Assembly (NCBI GenBank): GCA_000004985.1
Contig: GG738861.1
DNA length: 64,000 bases
Source of the DNA: Naegleria gruberi
Lineage: Eukaryota
Direction: 5' to 3' (one strand)
Of this stretch, positions 4,730 through 61,332 are shown in pieces (position 1 is the stretch's first letter; each line of letters begins with the position of its first letter). The position numbers and the translations under genes were made by a program. The notes below the pieces were generated by a model. It did not search any database. It was not told the DNA's origin and saw only the letters and a program-made list of their open reading frames with translations.

Positions 4730-4802
4730 GCCGACATAGCTCAGTTGGGAGAGCGTAAGACTGAAGATCTTAAGGTCCCTGGTTCGATCCCTGGTGTCGG
4801 CA
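4730..4802 (+). tRNA. tRNA-Phe: tRNA-Phe (anticodon GAA), 73 nt, intronless
   Basis: The sequence is GCCGACATAGCTCAGTTGGGAGAGCGTAAGACTGAAGATCTTAAGGTCCCTGGTTCGATCCCTGGTGTCGGCA. The acceptor stem has 7 base pairs (GCCGACA/TGTCGGC) with discriminator A. The A-box TAGCTCAGTTGG and B-box GGTTCGATCC are present, and the anticodon loop CTGAAGA gives GAA. It is near-identical in arms to classic eukaryotic tRNA-Phe. A T-run follows (ggcaaatttta). Confidence 0.93.
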
Positions 4803-53321: not shown

Positions 53322-54099
53322 ATTGTTTATGTAGTGTGCGTTGATTGCTTTCTAAAAGACTCTTTTAAGTGTGTGGGTAAAGAGAAAAAAAATGTATTTT
53401 TTTCTAAAGAATTTTAAATTGTCGCCGCGCAAGCATTAACCAAGTCCTAACTGGGTTCAACACAATATTGGAGGAGTTTTTGCAATGAACCACCAGCTAG
53501 GAGTTAAAAATCTCTATTGTAAACTTGGTTTCCAGCGTCGCTCCTTTTAAATAATCGTCGTTTTGTAAGATGTGGATTCTTTTTGGTGCATAATAAAATA
53601 ATATGGATATGAATTTACAGTTGTTTCAAATCAGATTATTTCATGTTGTTTTTCATTGTGGTTGTTGAAATTTGTGAACGTTCTGGATTTGGGTTGTTGT
53701 AAAGGATCAGCGGAGTTTATTATTTTCTCATGAATTAAAAATATCTAATATAGTTGCTTAAAATTGTGGTGTTTCAACTCTGATCTCATTCCCCTCAATA
53801 TCATTTCACATTTAATAAATATTAAAATTTAACATGACTTGAATTCATTGCTGCCAAAATTGAGCGTCCTGTTAATACTAAAAAATCACAATTTTTCAAT
53901 CCTTCATATTCCAATTTGCAGATTTTAATTTGCAGCTATTAAATTAATCTAATGCACATTGAATAATACTCTTAAAATACATCCAGGATAAAAAAGCTGA
54001 TCAATATGATGTAGATTTATGAATTTCCTCAATTCAAAATCATTATTATGGCTCCAAACCAAAAACATCATCAGCAAGTGGAAACAAACAAAATGAAAG

Positions 54100-54785
54100 T
54101 GTTGATGTGAAGAAGATTGAAAACTACTCTGAGTGGTACTCTACCAAGAGTGATTTCCTTGATTATTATGAAGTGGGGAAACCATTTGGAACAATTGCAC
54201 AAATGAACTTATGAAGAAATTCTTGCGGTTCCAGTTATTGAGGGTAGGAAGACTGAAACTGAAAAGTTTTCTGCCGCAGATTTCACAACAACCATTGAGG
54301 CTTTCATTCCAACAAACGGAAGAGCTGATCAAGCTGCCATAAGTTGGGTGTTATGATCATGGTGATGACAAGGATATGGTCTTGCCACCAAGTTGCCTTC
54401 ACTCTAGTTGTTCTTATTCCTTTTTCTGTAAGAATAAGGATAATAGTCAACGGAAATTTTCACTCTCCTAGACCAAAATGGGATTCGTATTAAGATTGAT
54501 TATCGTTTGGAAAAGACTCAAATTGGGAAATTCAAATATTGGGAACTTTATGGTATTCCATTGAGAATTGAAATTGGTCTAAAGGAAACTGGCCAAGCCA
54601 AGCTCTGTAGAAGAGACAATGGAGAAATGGACAGTCTCTCTTGATCAACCCACTGCTCAATATATCAATGGCACTTTGGATATGATTCACAATTCCATGT
54701 TGGAAAAAGCTTCACTGGGTGGTTGTAAAGTTTTCTGTACAGAATTGACTGACAGAAAACCAAACAAGAGGGCTATTTGGTAAAT
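54100..54785 (+). pseudogene. Decayed fragments of a class-II prolyl-tRNA synthetase (eukaryote/archaeal type)
   Basis: Out-of-frame, stop-interrupted segments align to ProRS. 'ENYSEWYSTKSDFLDYYEV' matches '[22 protein letters not shown]'. '[28 protein letters not shown]' matches '[28 protein letters not shown]'. '[10 protein letters not shown]...' matches 'VMTMVHGDNMG'. 'KYWELYGIPLRIEIGLKETGQAKLCRRDNGEM' matches '[34 protein letters not shown]'. The whole catalytic core (motifs 2 and 3) between the first two fragments is missing. Confidence 0.7.
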
Positions 54786-55391
54786 TGAATAAACAAATTA
54801 GATTTAAAGTGTGTAAGTAAACAAGGGACAATTTTCTAATGCTCATAGTTTTTCATTAAGGGATTCAAGGAGATTAAGTTTCTCTAGGTTCTTCTGAATA
54901 TAAGTAGACCTTAAAAAATAGCTGAAAGCTCAACATTTTTTCTCATGAAGTCCCTTTCCTCAAATCCATTCACTATGTTGTTTAGTATTAGAGAAATTGA
55001 TAGGACTTCAATTTTAGCAATCATGCAAGCATATTGAACAAGAAAGAAGCAAGATAGTGGAGAAGAAAAACCAGGGGTAACATCATTTACTCAGGAATAA
55101 ACTTCTTCTTGATAAATTTTCATTAAGAGAGTAGAATCTATCACGATGTTGCAAAGACATAAAAGGATCGGAACCTAAGACAGTGTTTTGTAATTGCCAT
55201 TTTCTATACCAAATCAAATCTCTAAAATACTGTAACATTGGTTCTGTACAGGAAACGTCTGATGCTTTTATTGACCAAAAAAGTTCACTTTAATAATCAC
55301 AAACATCAACAACAAGATGTGTAACCAACCTAAAATAAATGAATCCAACTACCTAGCGCACAGACACTGGAAACTAAACGAAAAAAATTCA

Positions 55392-56597
55392 ATGAGAACA
55401 ATCCTTGTTTTATTGGCTTTGTGTGTTTTAGCACTCGCTGTGAATGGTGCTGACATTAGTTTTATCAGCTCATTTGATGATTATAAACTTTCTTGCAACT
55501 TAAAGACAAAGAATAATACAGTGAATCCAATCTCATCTGGTTATTTGGTTGGGTTATATGCTGAGGGTGGCTCTAGCTATCGTTTGGCCATGATTGACTT
55601 GGACAGTAATGCCATTACTTACATTGGTAATGATGTCTTTAATTCTTATTCATTGGGTGGTGTCGCCATCGACCCAATTAACCACAGATTATTCATCATG
55701 GTTGTTCCATCTCAAACTCCAACAATGAGAACATACAGTCTATTAACTGGTAAAATGTTGTATCAAGTGAATACTTCTGAAATTTCCAACTTGGTTTTTG
55801 AACCAGCATTGGGTAATCTCTATGGATTAGGTTACAATGATTCAATGGTCACAATTTTGGATATTGATTGGGAAACTGGTGAGGATACAATTGTTGCAAC
55901 TACTCCACTCAAAGGATCTACCAATATGATTCGTAATATTAATCCAGCAACATCTGTGATGTATATTTATGGATATGATAGTACCTATTTCAATACTATG
56001 ATTGCTGTCAATTTAACAAGTGGAAGTTGGAAATATTTCAATCCTCCTTCTATTACTTCCTATGTTGCTTTGTTTTCAAATGGTTATCAAGGTAAATCCA
56101 ATGTCCTTGCAATTGCTGAATACGAAGGAAAATATGCTCCTGTTTCCATTGATAGCAATACAAATGTCACTGTAATTGGTTCAACAAGGTTTAATTCATT
56201 GGTCCTGTCTGACAAGGCTTATGACGTTAAGGAAAATGTCATTATTGGAACATTGGAAGATACAAGCAAGATTGTAGTTCTTAATATGACTAGTGGATTG
56301 ATTGTAAAACAAATTCCATTGAATAGTGGTGCTTCTCTTGGACCTGTCTCATACCAACAAATTTGTGTCTGTTGTATTGCTTCTCAAAACACAAGAAGTA
56401 TCTATGGTGGTTCATTGGACAAGTCAATTGTTCTTCCATGTCAAACCAATACTGCATCATCCACCAAAGTAATTGGTACTACTAGTAGTAATGGTACTAT
56501 CAAACCATCTCAGAGCAGAGTTAGTTCTTCCAATTCAAATTTCAATATTTCACTTGTATTCATTGTGATTGTAGGATTTTTGATGGGTCTGTTCTAA
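55392..56597 (+). CDS. Secreted or GPI-anchored Ser/Thr-rich surface protein (about 401 aa from the ATG at 55392)
   Basis: It has a cleavable signal peptide 'MRTILVLLALCVLALAVNGADI', many N-glycosylation sequons, and a Ser/Thr-rich stalk 'TNTASSTKVIGTTSSNGTIKPSQSRVSSSNSN'. The hydrophobic C-terminus 'ISLVFIVIVGFLMGLF*' is consistent with a GPI-attachment signal. The upstream ATG at 55317 would add 25 hydrophilic residues. Confidence 0.55.
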   Translation: MRTILVLLALCVLALAVNGADISFISSFDDYKLSCNLKTKNNTVNPISSGYLVGLYAEGGSSYRLAMIDLDSNAITYIGNDVFNSYSLGGVAIDPINHRLFIMVVPSQTPTMRTYSLLTGKMLYQVNTSEISNLVFEPALGNLYGLGYNDSMVTILDIDWETGEDTIVATTPLKGSTNMIRNINPATSVMYIYGYDSTYFNTMIAVNLTSGSWKYFNPPSITSYVALFSNGYQGKSNVLAIAEYEGKYAPVSIDSNTNVTVIGSTRFNSLVLSDKAYDVKENVIIGTLEDTSKIVVLNMTSGLIVKQIPLNSGASLGPVSYQQICVCCIASQNTRSIYGGSLDKSIVLPCQTNTASSTKVIGTTSSNGTIKPSQSRVSSSNSNFNISLVFIVIVGFLMGLF

Positions 56598-56617: not shown

Positions 56618-58241
56618 TTACTTTCCAAATATTTTTAATCTTTGAATTTCCAATTGTGATTGAATATGATTTAAATCAGTGTTTTGATCCAAAAGCACTT
56701 TGGTTTGAGTTGAATCATTCATTAGAGTGAAGTGCTCAAATAAAGGTTGTTTTAAAAGGATGGAATCATCCATCTCCGTGTTAAAGGTGTCTGAATTTTC
56801 TTGTGAAATTTTCATAGTATCTGAGAGCACCACAAAAGGAATATTGTAAAATCTGGAAATCGAATAGAGTACGCTTGTGCCAGTCTTGTTAGAAATTACA
56901 ATGTCTCCATGACTATAATGGATTGAATCTGATCCTACACACATAAGATCAACCTTTCCAGAACGTGAGAGTAAAGCAACTGCTGCTTCAGTGCAAACTT
57001 GAACTCTTAGATTTTTGATACCCTGATCTAAGGCAAAGTCCTTCAGAGATTTAGCTGTTTTGTACCCTTCCTTTTCTGGCTGAGACTCTGTACAATAGAT
57101 GGTTAAATCAATGGATGCATGTTTTGCATGTAAGTCTAACATTAAATCTTTCAATGATTTAATAACAACACTGCTCCAACTGTGGGTCAATATTGAGATT
57201 TTCTGGGTGTTATCTTTTAAAAATTCTGATTTCACATAATTTTGAAACTTATTTGATAGTAACTGAGTATTGTTTGATATCTTAATGCCAAATTTGTTCA
57301 ATCTGTCTTTCATTTTCTGTACCATATTTTCAAAAGTTTGTTCAGAAATTTGTTTGACAATACTATCCTGATCAAATTGTAATTCACCATTCATTATTTC
57401 TACAAGAGATTGAACAGCCACATTCCTAATCATTGGCATTTCAATTCTACATTGATCTAAAATCCAAACAATGTCTCTCAGTTTCGAAGTTAAAAAAACA
57501 GCTCTCATGCTATCCATATCTATTGAAGAATTCATCAATTTGAAATAATCTGGTATATCTTCAGATGAAAATAAGTTCAAGGCCTTTTTCATAATATCTA
57601 TCGTTTTCAAAGCAATGGTAGTTGCACCATCTGTAAAATTATTAACAATGGTATTGTCTATTTCTACCAATAATTCAGTCTCCAATCCATAGAAAAAGTA
57701 TAATCTGTGAAGAGTGTCTCTTAGATTGGGAACTGTTTCATGTAGGGTGGGAGTGGTGCTGTCATTCATACCCTTCCTCAGAAATTGCTCAGTATCAAAA
57801 ACATTGAATGAATCGTGTTCCCAATCAATCTTGAATCCTAAATTATCAAGTTGGCTAGGGATATCTTTTGAATTTTCTACTGACAATCTAAATAGAAAAG
57901 GATAAACAATAAATCCCTTTCCATTATTTAAAGGCAAATATTGTGGACGACCACTTCGGATGAAGTTCAAATGTTTTCCAACTTGTAATTGTGTTTCTTC
58001 TTGGATTTCTCTGAAGGCACTCCATCGGGCTTTCCACAAAATAATCACCAACCCTATAATCAAACCGATCATTTGAAGAATAATCCACAGGTGGATTGTT
58101 AACCAAGTCAATAGAACCAGAAATTGAAGCCCACATTTTCGGATAAGAATTAACCTTCTCCGATCTTTTAAATAGTAGAATATGTGATTTTTCTTCCTTT
58201 ATCACTTCAATAAAGCCAGTGGCTACTCTTCTCCATTTCAT
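56618..58241 (-). CDS. Nudix hydrolase domain fused to an eIF-2B / methylthioribose-1-phosphate-isomerase-like (IF-2B family) domain; the reading frame switches once near 58060-58115 (unannotated intron or frameshift)
   Basis: The upstream ORF (58241..57924) reads 'MKWRRVATGFIEVIKEEKSHILLFKRSEKVNSYPKMWASISGSID', which looks like Nudix beta-strands and the 'W.lPGG' region. The Nudix box continues in the other frame as '...AFREIQEETQLQVG'. Downstream, '...ILTHSWSSVV...IYCTESQPEKEGYKTAKSL...MCVGSDSIHYSHGDIVISNKTGTSVLYSISRFYNIPFVVLSDTMKI' aligns to the IF-2B-family core 'VLTHCNTG...ETRP.lQG.RLTa.EL...GADRv.aNGDtaNKIGTy.lA..A....IPFyV'. A candidate 46- or 55-nt intron with a GTTTGA donor would join the frames. 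Confidence 0.55.
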
Positions 58242-59547: not shown

Positions 59548-61332
59548 ATGCCATCACAAGATAATACAGAACAAACAAGCTTTTCCTTCAGAGTGCGGGT
59601 TGCTGACAATGCCAAAGTTAAAGAAGAAAAGTTCATCGTGGTTGATTCTCAGAAATTACCAAAGAGCATTGATGAATTATTCAAATTGGGAAAAGCCAAA
59701 TTAAATTTAAAGAAGAAGGTGCTTGCACTTTATAATGGAAAATCAGGACAAGTCATTGAATCGGATAGTATTATTCAAAAGTTATTCAATGATTTTACAA
59801 CAGCTAAGAGAAAACAATTACAGGAAGAACAATTAATTGGATCAACAGGATTAGGATCAAAGCCTTCCGATGATTTATTCTTTGTTTTTTCGACCAATTT
59901 AAAACAAACTTTCCAAGGAAAGATTACGCAACCAGTTGAATCGAGTGACAATAATACAACAACATCTTCATCATCAGTTGAAAAGACACCAGAAGTAGTT
60001 GTCTTGATAAAGGACAGTTGGTTGGATGATGGAGCTATTAAACAATTGCAAGATACTGCTCGTACATTGAAATGTGTAAGAAGAGCCACTGGTCAACCTG
60101 ACCTTCATCCAGGTAAAACATTCCCAGTAGGAGCTGCCATTTCAACTGTAGATTACATCTACCCACCACTCGTTGGTAATGATATTGGGTGTGGTATGAG
60201 TTTGTATCAAACTAATTTAACATCAGATAGAGGATTGAAACAATTAGAAAAATGGGTGAAACAACTCAACGGATTAGAAAGAGGAGGAATTAGCGGCGAT
60301 GAAAGTAGACCTGTATTGGATGTTGAAAGAAAATTCTTTGGATTGGATTCTAGTGAGGATTTGCTTTCAGCCACATCTACTAACTCTGAAAATGTAGATT
60401 TTGAATTACATGAAGCCACAACTGAATTTATTGAAAAATATTTAACCTATTTTGATGTAGATTTGGGTCAACTCCAAGAAGTTACTCCAAATCTTGAATC
60501 GGAAGAGGGTGTTACCTCTCCGCCAAAGAGTGAAAATAAGGCCTTGGAATTTGCCATTCGTCAACTTGGTACTGTCGGAGGTGGAAATCACTTTGCAGAG
60601 CTTCAAATCGTCGAAAAGATTTGTAATGAAAAGATTTTTGAAGAAGAATTGAAACTTTCAAAGGATGCTTGCTTTTTGATGGTTCATAGTGGATCAAGAT
60701 CCCTTGGTGATCATATTCTTGGAGAACATGAGGATAAATTTGGAAATAGTGGCTTGCTTTTTGACTCGGATGATGCAAAGCACTATATGAAATGTCACGA
60801 CAATGCTTGTAGATGGGCAAAGGCCAACAGAGCTCTCATTGCCAGAAAGTTCCTTACTTGCATTAACGGAAATGGTAAAATGATTCTTGACATTTGCCAC
60901 AACAATGTTGTAGAAAAACAAGTTGAAAATGAAAGAGTTTTCATTCACAGAAAGGGTGCTGCACCAACAGATGCTGGTTACTTCTGCATTCCTGGTTCGA
61001 GAGGATCATTCTCCTATCTTGTTCGTGGACGTGAAGAAGATATTGAAAGCCAAATTCGTTGTAATTTTTCAGCTGCACACGGTGCTGGCAGAAAATGGAA
61101 GCGTTCCAAATCAGTTGGTATGGCCGCAAAGGAAAATGTTCAATCCTTCACAGTTACTGACCTCGGATCTCATGTCATTTGTGAAGATAAGAATTTACTT
61201 TTTGAAGAACAACCTGCTGCTTACAAGGATATCGATGCAGTCATTTCAGATTTAGTTCATTTTGGGGTTGTTGAAGTTGTTGCCATTATGAGACCACTCA
61301 TTACCTACAAGATGAGAAACTGTTGCCATTAA
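59548..61332 (+). CDS. RtcB-family RNA 3'-phosphate ligase-like protein with an about 170-aa N-terminal extension (divergent from the canonical eukaryotic HSPC117-type RtcB)
   Basis: RtcB signatures are present: 'QPDLHPGKTFPVGAAIS...VGNDIGCGMSLY', 'GTVGGGNHFAELQ', 'IHRKGAAPT', 'IPGSRGSFSYLVRG' and 'SAAHGAGRKWKRS'. The N-terminal about 170 aa ('FRVRVADNAKVKEEKFIVVDSQKLPKSIDELFKLGKAKLNL...') is extra. Confidence 0.65.
   Translation: MPSQDNTEQTSFSFRVRVADNAKVKEEKFIVVDSQKLPKSIDELFKLGKAKLNLKKKVLALYNGKSGQVIESDSIIQKLFNDFTTAKRKQLQEEQLIGSTGLGSKPSDDLFFVFSTNLKQTFQGKITQPVESSDNNTTTSSSSVEKTPEVVVLIKDSWLDDGAIKQLQDTARTLKCVRRATGQPDLHPGKTFPVGAAISTVDYIYPPLVGNDIGCGMSLYQTNLTSDRGLKQLEKWVKQLNGLERGGISGDESRPVLDVERKFFGLDSSEDLLSATSTNSENVDFELHEATTEFIEKYLTYFDVDLGQLQEVTPNLESEEGVTSPPKSENKALEFAIRQLGTVGGGNHFAELQIVEKICNEKIFEEELKLSKDACFLMVHSGSRSLGDHILGEHEDKFGNSGLLFDSDDAKHYMKCHDNACRWAKANRALIARKFLTCINGNGKMILDICHNNVVEKQVENERVFIHRKGAAPTDAGYFCIPGSRGSFSYLVRGREEDIESQIRCNFSAAHGAGRKWKRSKSVGMAAKENVQSFTVTDLGSHVICEDKNLLFEEQPAAYKDIDAVISDLVHFGVVEVVAIMRPLITYKMRNCCH

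What the first reader, a model, noticed from the sequence alone, without database searches (positions are those of the whole stretch)
56618..58241. Rosetta-stone fusion of a Nudix hydrolase with an eIF2B/MtnA-family sugar-phosphate isomerase-like domain, with an unresolved frame break inside the Nudix box
The N-terminal about 60 codons and the 'REIQEETQLQV' Nudix signature lie in different frames of one continuous coding region. The C-terminal 330 residues match the IF-2B family (methylthioribose-1-P or ribose-1,5-bisP isomerase, eIF2B alpha/beta/delta). Nudix enzymes release ribose-5-P derivatives from ADP-ribose or nucleotide sugars, and IF-2B-family isomerases act on ribose-1-phosphates. 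So the fusion implies a coupled nucleotide-sugar salvage step. Between the 'GSID' and 'REIQEE' elements there are about 35 codons where a Nudix box allows about 13. That argues for a short non-canonical intron (GTTTGA donor) or a frameshift. A TM-like hydrophobic stretch exists in one frame only.
Basis: partly seen in the sequence, partly recalled or inferred. Interest (0 to 1): 0.7.

Follow-up and report, generated by a model that had tools for sequence, protein, structure and literature searches.

The report
Nudix plus isomerase-like fusion gene, frameshifted
This is the Naegleria gruberi copy of a widespread but uncharacterised gene that joins a Nudix pyrophosphatase to a sugar-phosphate-isomerase-like domain, and its odd frame break is a 2-base deletion in this reference sequence, not an intron.

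Summary
On the minus strand at 58241-56618, two overlapping ORFs in different frames together encode a Nudix domain followed by an IF-2B-family domain. The window is Naegleria gruberi NEG-M. An independent N. gruberi-like assembly (ERR1078381) carries the same gene as one 541-codon ORF. The only difference near the break is one extra GT (GAGTGTGCC against GAGTGCC). So the break is a 2-nt deletion in codon 75, either an assembly error or a strain-specific null allele. No intron is needed.

The long gap inside the Nudix box is a real Naegleria-specific loop insertion: 22 aa here, 42 and 49 aa in N. lovaniensis and N. fowleri. The "TM-like" stretch is an out-of-frame artefact.

The fusion is conserved in Naegleria, many fungi, archaea and bacteria. 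Among 75 prokaryotic loci with the IF-2B-like gene, 16 are fused and 40 have the matching Nudix gene adjacent. That supports functional coupling.

The IF-2B half is closest to ribose-1,5-bisphosphate isomerase. All 79 members examined have Ser where that enzyme has its catalytic Cys, and a C-to-S change inactivates the enzyme while leaving substrate binding. The domain is therefore more likely a ribose-phosphate-binding partner than an isomerase.

The architecture is already annotated (Haloferax HVO_1934), but its function is unknown.

The parts
56618..58241 (-). Whole disrupted coding region of the Nudix/IF-2B-like gene. It is a single exon of 541 codons plus stop once 2 nt are restored.
   Evidence: ORFs. 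It is collinear with the intact 541-aa P0001 on L001 and with the Naegleria and fungal homologues.
58020..58241 (-). Frame-1 segment, codons 1-74 (MKWRR...VESPME). This is the true N-terminus.
   Evidence: The DNA is identical to L001 over this stretch. The N-terminus aligns with N. fowleri and N. lovaniensis (MASQRWRRVTTSFIE).
58018..58020 (-). Site of the 2-nt deletion. One GT unit of GAGTGTGCC is missing and the window reads GAGTGCC. Codon 75 is left with a single base. Placement within the GTGTG run is ambiguous.
   Evidence: Global DNA alignment of the window against L001. Codon arithmetic.
56618..58018 (-). Frame-3 segment, codons 76-541 plus the TAA stop (AFREIQEETQL...KIFGK).
58019..58111 (-). 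Out-of-frame 5' extension of the 497-aa ORF. This is the 'TM-like' hydrophobic peptide and is not part of the protein.
   Evidence: It is frame 3 upstream of the deletion. It is absent from P0001 and from all homologues.
57776..58232 (-). Nudix domain, residues 4-156 of the restored protein.
58041..58106 (-). Naegleria-specific 22-aa loop insertion inside the G-x5-E part of the Nudix box (about residues 46-67).
   Evidence: Spacing counts and alignment A1. AlphaFold pLDDT is below 50 at residues 51-63.
57986..58036 (-). Nudix-box helix, E70-x7-R78-E-I-Q-E-E-T-Q-L86. The deletion splits it.
   Evidence: P0001 sequence. E79, E82 and E83 are invariant in the family.
56768..57628 (-). IF-2B-family (ribose-1,5-bisphosphate-isomerase-like) domain, residues 206-492.
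57173..57187 (-). T353-H-S355-W-S357 motif. S355 sits where MtnA and R15Pi have the catalytic Cys. S357 corresponds to the 5-phosphate-binding Ser137 of R15Pi.
   Evidence: Residue roles from PMC5789824.
56927..56935 (-). G437-S-D439. D439 corresponds to the catalytic and sugar-binding Asp202/204 of R15Pi and is kept.

Best explanation
The locus is the Naegleria gruberi orthologue of a widespread, uncharacterised two-domain protein. It has an N-terminal Nudix pyrophosphohydrolase joined by a conserved linker (DWEH ... VPxL) to a C-terminal IF-2B-family domain. That domain is most like ribose-1,5-bisphosphate isomerase (R15Pi).

Shown:
- The gene is a single exon.
- In this reference sequence, one GT of a GTGT repeat is missing in codon 75. 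That splits the ORF into two frames.
- The over-long Nudix box is a Naegleria-specific coding loop insertion.
- The hydrophobic peptide is an out-of-frame artefact.

Inferred mechanism:
- The Nudix half keeps the catalytic REUxEE glutamates. It should cleave a pyrophosphate bond in a phosphoribosyl-containing substrate. ADP-ribose, PRPP or a related compound are candidates, not results.
- The IF-2B-like half keeps the sugar and 5-phosphate binding residues and the Asp of R15Pi, but it always has Ser in place of the catalytic Cys. It also lacks, or has changed, two 1-phosphate ligands (Arg22 is not kept; Gln166 is replaced by Glu).
- It therefore most likely binds a ribose-5-phosphate moiety, for substrate recognition, product capture or regulation. 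It probably does not perform the Cys-dependent aldose-ketose isomerisation.

Whether the 2-nt deletion is a sequencing or assembly error or a true null allele of strain NEG-M is open. I rate the two as roughly even, with a slight lean to a real allele.
For: **Organism.** Ten window ORFs were looked up, and seven are exact N. gruberi proteins.

**Frame break.** P0001 is an intact 541-aa ORF on an independent contig. The DNA alignment shows a single 2-nt gap and no other difference in the first about 1.29 kb of the gene region.

**No intron.** The N. fowleri orthologue is one uninterrupted 1932-nt ORF in two assemblies.

**Family size and spread.**
- 894 representative proteins score E<1e-30.
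- Members occur in fungi of five phyla.
- Members occur in archaea and bacteria.

**Linkage.** 16 loci are fused, 29 have the Nudix gene adjacent on the same strand, 11 have it convergent within 500 nt, and 19 have the IF-2B-like gene alone.

**Active-site pattern.** Ser355, Ser357, Asp439 and Lys478 are each present in all 79 aligned members. The mapping onto R15Pi Cys133/135, Ser137, Asp202/204 and Lys240 comes from the residue-level alignment.

**Published support.** R15Pi C135S is inactive but still binds the substrate (PMC5789824).

**Hints that the NEG-M copy is decaying.** All three substitutions between the window and L001 in the CDS are nonsynonymous. Two of them replace residues conserved in the other Naegleria species.
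Against: - No biochemical data exist for any member. Deletion of the Haloferax volcanii protein of the same architecture (HVO_1934) gave no phenotype under 12 conditions (PMC3828320), so function cannot be read from genetics.
- The substrate is not identified. The Nudix half resembles MutT-like, Ap4A, CoA and NudI enzymes about equally.
- An invariant Ser with a conserved neighbouring His and Asp could support some other catalysis, so 'binding only' is an inference.
- 19 of 75 prokaryotic loci have the IF-2B-like gene without a nearby family Nudix gene.
- I could not read the coordinates of the model, so the relative position of the two active sites is unknown.
- The error-versus-allele question cannot be settled without reads. 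Three substitutions are too few for a firm dN/dS argument.
Confidence: 0.75

Rival explanations
1. The frame break is bridged by a short non-canonical intron, and the extra about 22 codons in the Nudix box are intronic.
For: Two frames are needed to read the gene in the window. N. gruberi does have spliceosomal introns (general knowledge).
Against: - An independent assembly has the same DNA as one continuous ORF with 2 extra nt.
- By my own reading of the sequence, no GT...AG interval in 58130-58010 has a length of 3n+1 that keeps a Nudix-like reading. The 64-nt candidate would replace ESPMEC by a hydrophobic LVIILW stretch that has no counterpart in homologues.
- N. fowleri and N. lovaniensis keep still longer inserts as coding sequence. 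The N. fowleri gene is a single ORF in two assemblies.
Confidence: 0.02
2. The fusion is a true bifunctional salvage enzyme. The Nudix half releases a ribose phosphate, for example ribose-1,5-bisphosphate from PRPP or ADP-ribose-1''-phosphate. The IF-2B half then isomerises it.
For: - Fusion and adjacency are conserved across three domains of life.
- Prokaryotic members are closest to R15Pi (TIGR00511 is the best NCBIfam hit; 3vm6 and 3a11 are the best PDB hits).
- Asp439, Asn452, Lys453, Ser357, Lys478 and Arg266 of the R15Pi pocket are kept.
- Some Nudix enzymes make ribose-1,5-bisphosphate from PRPP (Fisher et al. 2002, J Biol Chem 277:47313, seen as reference 140 in PMC5389931).
Against: - The catalytic Cys is Ser in all 79 members. 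R15Pi C135S is inactive (PMC5789824).
- The 1-phosphate ligand Arg22 is not conserved, and Gln166 is replaced by an acidic Glu.
- No member reaches the MtnA or R15Pi equivalog cut-offs. P0001 scores 35.6 against 279 and 33.5 against 314.
- I know of no use for ribulose-1,5-bisphosphate in fungi or Naegleria (general knowledge).
Confidence: 0.2
3. The IF-2B half acts as an eIF2B/aIF2B-like regulator of translation initiation, and the Nudix half acts as a nucleotide sensor.
For: - The best solved-structure sequence match of the Naegleria protein is human eIF2B alpha (E=2.6e-8).
- eIF2B alpha binds sugar phosphates (PMC8187479, title and abstract).
- In three Nitrososphaeria loci, an aIF2-alpha gene lies two genes away.
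- HVO_1934 was studied as a putative aIF2B subunit (PMC8576121).
Against: - The family is common in bacteria, which have no e/aIF2.
- HVO_1934 had few interactions with initiation factors, and its deletion had no phenotype, alone or combined with deletion of HVO_2706.
- The aIF2-alpha neighbour is on the other side of an oppositely oriented gene and is seen in one archaeal class only.
Confidence: 0.05
4. The 2-nt deletion is only an error of the NEG-M reference assembly, and the gene is intact and functional in the organism.
For: - The indel is the only difference in about 1.29 kb of otherwise identical sequence.
- It lies in a short dinucleotide repeat (GTGT).
- The rest of the ORF is open and conserved.
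Against: - The three other differences in the CDS are all nonsynonymous. Two remove residues conserved in other Naegleria (TEASVG to TEAAVA). That fits relaxed constraint on the NEG-M copy.
- The Haloferax protein of the same architecture is dispensable, so loss is plausible.
- No independent record of either broken ORF was found, which is uninformative.
Confidence: 0.45

Closest known systems
[quoted passage not shown]
   Same: It has the same two-domain architecture. Haloferax loci L015, L024, L027 and L030 match the fusion family over both domains (query residues 5-440, about 30% identity). They carry T-x-S-x-S, ESRPxxEG and GAD...NKxG.
   Different: It is archaeal and about 430 aa, with no insertion in the Nudix box. 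I did not have the HVO_1934 sequence itself, so orthology is inferred from other Haloferax species. No function is known, and deletion gave no phenotype (PMC3828320, PMC8576121).
Ribose-1,5-bisphosphate isomerase (R15Pi; T. kodakarensis TK0185, P. horikoshii PH0208; TIGR00511)
   Different: The catalytic Cys133/135 is Ser in every member. Arg22 is not kept and Gln166 is Glu. Scores are far below the equivalog cut-off. The family is fused or linked to a Nudix gene, and it coexists with a genuine R15Pi in H. volcanii (HVO_0966, PMC8576121).
Methylthioribose-1-phosphate isomerase MtnA/Mri1 (TIGR00512)
   Different: Cys is replaced by Ser. The TIGR00512 score is 35.6 against a cut-off of 279. At least one member (Neolecta OLL25997.1) is named MtnA in databases, which is probably over-annotation.
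eIF2B regulatory subunits alpha/beta/delta
   Same: This is the best sequence match of the Naegleria protein in the PDB (eIF2B alpha, E=2.6e-8). It shares loss of the catalytic Cys and of 1-phosphate ligands, as described for eIF2B alpha in PMC5789824.
   Different: eIF2B alpha has Glu, not Asp, in the G-A-(D/E) motif (alignment). The family occurs in bacteria, carries a Nudix domain, and has no evidence of eIF2 binding.
Generic Nudix hydrolases (MutT-related 3grn, Ap4A hydrolases 1kt9/5cfi, CoA pyrophosphatase 1nqz, NudI)
   Same: It has the Nudix fold and the REUxEE catalytic helix. Fungal and prokaryotic members have the canonical G-x5-E-x7-REUxEE spacing.
   Different: No specific subfamily is matched. 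The family has its own downstream motifs (YPFLF, DWEH, VPxL). Naegleria members carry a 22-49 aa insertion inside the box.

Membership tests
Nudix hydrolase superfamily (PF00293) | Profile match above Pfam's gathering score | tested here: met
   The restored protein P0001 scores 26.1 bits against 21.1. The two window ORFs taken separately give no NUDIX hit at E<=1.
Nudix hydrolase superfamily (PF00293) | Nudix box G-x5-E-x7-R-E-U-x-E-E-x-G-U with canonical spacing | tested here: inconclusive
   E70-x7-R78-E-I-Q-E-E is present in the restored frame. G42 to E70 has 27 intervening residues instead of 5 (a 22-aa insertion), and the final G is Gln. Fungal and prokaryotic family members have canonical spacing.
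Nudix hydrolase superfamily (PF00293) | Nudix alpha/beta/alpha fold | tested here: met
IF-2B family (PF01008) | Profile match above the gathering score, and the fold | tested here: met
Ribose-1,5-bisphosphate isomerase (TIGR00511 equivalog) | Score at or above the curated equivalog cut-off | tested here: not met
   P0001 scores 33.5 against 314.1. The prokaryotic sequences tested score 68-199 bits, also below the cut-off.
Ribose-1,5-bisphosphate isomerase (TIGR00511 equivalog) | Catalytic Cys133/135 | tested here: not met
   Ser in 79 of 79 aligned members, including P0001 S355. The position is fixed by alignment to 3a11 and 5yfj.
Ribose-1,5-bisphosphate isomerase (TIGR00511 equivalog) | Catalytic Asp202/204 and the sugar and 5-phosphate ligands (Asn214, Lys215, Ser137, Lys240) | tested here: met
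   D439, N452, K453, S357 and K478 are conserved. Ligand roles are from PMC5789824.
Ribose-1,5-bisphosphate isomerase (TIGR00511 equivalog) | 1-phosphate ligands Arg22, Arg65 and Gln166 | tested here: not met
   The Arg22 position is variable (Asp205 in P0001). Gln166 is Glu in 68 of 79 members. Only Arg65 (R266) is kept.
Methylthioribose-1-phosphate isomerase MtnA (TIGR00512) | Equivalog cut-off and catalytic Cys | tested here: not met
   35.6 bits against 279. Ser is at the Cys position. The Cys160/Asp240 numbering of B. subtilis MtnA is from my own recollection and was not checked here.
eIF2B regulatory subunits | Assembly into eIF2B and binding of eIF2 | not testable with these tools
   Only sequence and fold similarity is available. 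The family's presence in bacteria argues against this role.
Nudix/IF-2B-like fusion family (HVO_1934 type) | N-terminal Nudix, then DWEH and VPxL linker motifs, then an IF-2B-like domain with T-H-S-x-S, ESRPxxEG and GAD...NKxG...K | tested here: met
   All are present in the restored N. gruberi protein. It matches the family profile over its full length at E=1.1e-132. As it stands, the window copy is interrupted by the 2-nt deletion.

The most novel reading that the evidence does not exclude
The Nudix/IF-2B-like pair, fused or encoded side by side, is an undescribed two-component enzyme system present in all three domains of life. In this reading, an R15Pi-derived module with a natural Cys-to-Ser change serves as the ribose-5-phosphate-recognising or regulatory subunit of a dedicated Nudix pyrophosphatase. 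Alternatively, it catalyses a new Ser/Asp-dependent reaction. Either way it would define a new step in ADP-ribose, PRPP or pentose-bisphosphate turnover.
Probability: 0.3. Interest if true: 0.6.

Novelty: new member of a known kind. Interest (0 to 1): 0.4.

Why it matters
**For the genome.** The N. gruberi reference lacks a usable gene model here. No N. gruberi protein appeared among the homologues. The reason is a 2-nt indel, so the locus should be re-checked and annotated either as an intact gene or as a pseudogene.

**For biology.** The locus points to a large family: 894 representative clusters below E=1e-30. In this family, a Nudix enzyme is persistently tied to a ribose-1,5-bisphosphate-isomerase-like protein that has lost the catalytic cysteine. 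Members are currently named "eIF-2B subunit", "MtnA" or "Nudix domain protein" with no experimental basis. The family is a tractable target for enzymology. It also bears on how sugar-phosphate isomerases were recruited as ligand-binding modules, the same transition that produced the eIF2B regulatory subunits.

Tried and rejected
- **Intron models.** I enumerated GT...AG intervals by hand between 58130 and 58010. The 50-nt and 35-nt candidates give the wrong phase or a stop. The 64-nt candidate restores the phase but yields a non-homologous hydrophobic box. All became unnecessary once the intact allele was found.
- **Euplotes-type +1 frameshift.** The frame-1 ORF ends in AAA-TAA, which suggested this. 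I rejected it because the Nudix helix lies upstream of that stop, in the other frame.
- **Exact-product look-ups.** Look-ups of the window's broken ORFs (105 aa, 484 aa, 497 aa) found nothing on record. There is therefore no independent confirmation of the deleted allele.
- **Metagenome DNA scan.** A scan for either allele across the deletion site gave 0 hits.
- **First search for related loci attempt.** I repeated it with 6 sequences.
- **PADLOC.** Only a weak generic Nudix match appeared (PDC-S07, E=1e-8 to 5e-7, on the three sequences that contain a Nudix domain; none on P0001). There is no defence-system assignment.
- **Neighbourhood analysis beyond the Nudix link.** Neighbours are lineage-specific housekeeping genes: Tex, GluQ-tRNA synthetase, acetyl-CoA synthetase, RNase PH, KDPG aldolase and CinA. 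None is conserved across phyla.
- **RtcB adjacency.** The adjacency seen in N. gruberi is not conserved in N. fowleri.
- **Literature searches.** Searches for the fusion found only the Haloferax initiation-factor papers. The large Nudix-clan review does not mention it.
Full report
**What is in the sequence.** On the minus strand there are two overlapping ORFs in different frames. One is 58241-57924 (105 aa, MKWRRVATGFIE...). The other is 58111-56618 (497 aa), which contains REIQEETQLQV and a long C-terminal domain. The 497-aa ORF matches Pfam IF-2B (PF01008) at E=4.6e-18. Neither ORF alone matches Pfam NUDIX.

**Where the window comes from.** Seven of ten long window ORFs are exact matches to Naegleria gruberi proteins on a 507-kb scaffold. 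Examples are XP_002678557 at 55317-56597 and an RtcB-like ligase, XP_002678559, at 59548-61332. G+C content is about 33% throughout. No N. gruberi protein for the locus under study appeared among the homologues of a hand-joined query. The reference annotation in that collection seems to have no model here.

**The frame break.**
- The best hit of the joined query is P0001, a 541-aa protein encoded as one uninterrupted ORF. It lies on a 4.87-kb contig of an independent assembly (ENA ERZ929261 / run ERR1078381, locus L001).
- The contig is at least 99.3% identical to the window in coding parts, with many indels in intergenic DNA. It is another N. gruberi strain or haplotype.
- Across the gene, the alignment shows one 2-nt gap. 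L001 reads GGAGTGTGCC and the window reads GGAGTGCC, at window 58020-58018.
- There are also three substitutions, all far downstream. The deletion removes one GT of a GTGT run in codon 75.
- With the two bases restored, the protein reads ...VESPMECAFREIQEETQLQVG, which is E-x7-R-E-I-Q-E-E. It then passes Pfam NUDIX (26.1 bits against 21.1, residues 4-156) as well as IF-2B.
- No intron is needed. The N. fowleri orthologue is likewise a single 1932-nt ORF in two assemblies.
- The hydrophobic "TM-like" peptide is frame 3 read upstream of the deletion and is not part of the protein.

**The over-long Nudix box.** G42 to R78 spans 36 residues instead of 14. This is a 22-residue insertion in the loop between the G and the first E of the box. 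N. lovaniensis and N. fowleri have 42 and 49 extra residues at the same place, counted from the sequences. Fungal and prokaryotic relatives have 0-1 extra. In the AlphaFold model, the insertion is the only low-confidence part of the Nudix domain: pLDDT is below 50 at residues 51-63, against an overall pLDDT of 85.2 and pTM of 0.84. It is a lineage-specific surface loop. It is not intron sequence.

**Error or real allele?** I cannot decide this without reads.
- For an error: the indel is the only difference in about 1.29 kb of otherwise identical sequence, and it sits in a dinucleotide repeat.
- For a real, decaying allele: the three other CDS differences are all nonsynonymous. Two of them change TEASVG, which is conserved in the other Naegleria species, to TEAAVA in the window. 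The Haloferax protein of the same architecture is dispensable.
- Look-ups for the broken ORFs and a metagenome scan found nothing either way.

**The fusion is conserved and old.**
- Full-length homologues with both Pfam domains occur in N. lovaniensis and N. fowleri (37-38% identity) and in many fungi. The fungi include Ascomycota, Basidiomycota, Glomeromycota, Mucoromycota and Zoopagomycota.
- A profile search of 1.84 billion representative proteins gave 894 hits below E=1e-30. The best 150 are all below 1e-78 and mostly span both domains.
- One member (P0013) lies on an archaeal contig.
- A scan of one genome per prokaryotic species found 212 relatives. Full-length fusions occur in Nitrososphaeria, Hecatella, Bathyarchaeia, Haloferax, Poribacteria and several other phyla.
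- In a rough neighbour-joining tree, the eukaryotic sequences form one cluster with 80% bootstrap support (Naegleria 100%, fungi 91%). This fits a single origin in eukaryotes, but the method is crude.

**Rosetta-stone test.** I classified the 80 prokaryotic loci by tblastn with family Nudix domains.
- 16 loci are fused.
- 29 have the family-type Nudix gene immediately upstream on the same strand but as a separate ORF. These include Ktedonobacterales, Spirochaetota, Chromatiaceae and Competibacter.
- 11 (Dehalococcoidia) have it convergent within 500 nt.
- 19 have the IF-2B-like gene alone.
- 5 have the Nudix gene alone.

So 56 of 75 loci with the IF-2B-like gene keep the two parts physically linked, in three different arrangements. 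This is good evidence that the two parts work together. Some "split" cases in metagenome bins could be frameshift errors, but the pattern recurs in many independent bins. Other neighbours are lineage-specific housekeeping genes.

**What the IF-2B half is.**
- Prokaryotic members match R15Pi best, through TIGR00511 and PDB entries 3vm6 and 3a11. No member reaches any curated equivalog cut-off for R15Pi, MtnA or archaeal IF-2B subunits.
- A residue-level alignment to T. kodakarensis and P. horikoshii R15Pi, carried over to 79 family members, gives the pattern in the table below.

| R15Pi residue | Role in R15Pi | In this family |
|---|---|---|
| Cys133/135 | catalytic | Ser in all 79 (S355; motif T-H-S-x-S) |
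| Asp202/204 | catalytic | kept (D439) |
| Asn214-Lys215 | sugar ligands | kept (N452, K453) |
| Ser137, Lys240 | 5-phosphate ligands | kept (S357, K478) |
| Arg65 | 1-phosphate ligand | kept (R266) |
| Arg22 | 1-phosphate ligand | not conserved |
| Gln166 | 1-phosphate ligand | Glu in most members (E392; motif ESRPxxEG) |

- In P. horikoshii R15Pi, the C135S mutant is inactive but still binds the substrate. eIF2B alpha has likewise lost the Cys and the 1-phosphate ligands (PMC5789824).
- The best PDB match of a Dehalococcoidia member is the C133S mutant structure 3vm6, ahead of the wild type.
- I infer that the domain keeps a ribose-5-phosphate-type pocket but is not a Cys-dependent isomerase.

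**Comparison with what is known.** The architecture is already annotated. [quoted passage not shown] It was studied as a putative aIF2B subunit. It showed few interactions, and its deletion gave no phenotype under 12 conditions, alone or combined with deletion of HVO_2706 (PMC8576121, PMC3828320). H. volcanii also has a separate R15Pi (HVO_0966), so the fusion is a paralogue and not a replacement. I found no paper that characterises the family or notes the invariant Ser or the Nudix linkage. The searchable library is incomplete.

**Verdict.** The finding is real but largely ordinary at the level of this window. It is a member of an annotated, uncharacterised family, interrupted by a 2-nt deletion, with no intron. 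The family itself is a worthwhile lead: a conserved Nudix partner for a cysteine-less R15Pi-like module across three domains of life.

Noticed in passing
window 59548-61332 (+): An RtcB-like 3'-phosphate/5'-hydroxy RNA ligase gene (XP_002678559) lies about 1.3 kb from the 5' end of the Nudix/IF-2B gene and is divergently oriented. The adjacency is not conserved in N. fowleri, so it is probably a coincidence.
   Followed up: yes
window 4730-4802 (+): A tRNA-Phe (GAA) gene. It is the only Rfam or ARAGORN hit in the window.
   Followed up: no
window 53400-55300 against L001 3000-4870: The intergenic DNA next to the neighbouring gene differs between the window and the ERR1078381 contig by many indels (over 150 gap columns). 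Coding parts are at least 99.3% identical. This indicates strain-level or haplotype-level variation in N. gruberi.
   Followed up: partly
window 55317-56597 (+): The convergent neighbour encodes a 426-aa N. gruberi 'predicted protein' with hydrophobic N- and C-termini and no Pfam match. Its gene and the Nudix/IF-2B gene end about 20 nt apart. It differs at 6 residues between the two N. gruberi sequences.
   Followed up: no
L005, L006, L007 (Nitrososphaeria): An aIF2-alpha gene (PF07541) lies two genes downstream of the fusion gene, separated by an oppositely oriented conserved gene of unknown function. It is seen in this class only.
   Followed up: partly
L020-L023, L025, L031, L036, L043, L051 (Dehalococcoidia): There is a conserved local cluster: the IF-2B-like gene convergent with the family Nudix gene, followed by a CinA/PncC-like gene (PF02464), then in most of these loci a radical-SAM gene and a metallo-beta-lactamase-fold gene. 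The CinA link hints at NAD or ADP-ribose metabolism, but it is confined to one order.
   Followed up: partly
P0113 (Neolecta irregularis OLL25997.1): A family member is named 'Methylthioribose-1-phosphate isomerase' in NCBI and UniProt, although the family has Ser at the catalytic Cys position. This is probably over-annotation.
   Followed up: no
L021:223-1152 against PDB 3vm6: The best solved-structure match of a natural family member is the engineered C133S mutant of T. kodakarensis R15Pi, scoring slightly above the wild type (171.5 against 169.2 bits).
   Followed up: yes
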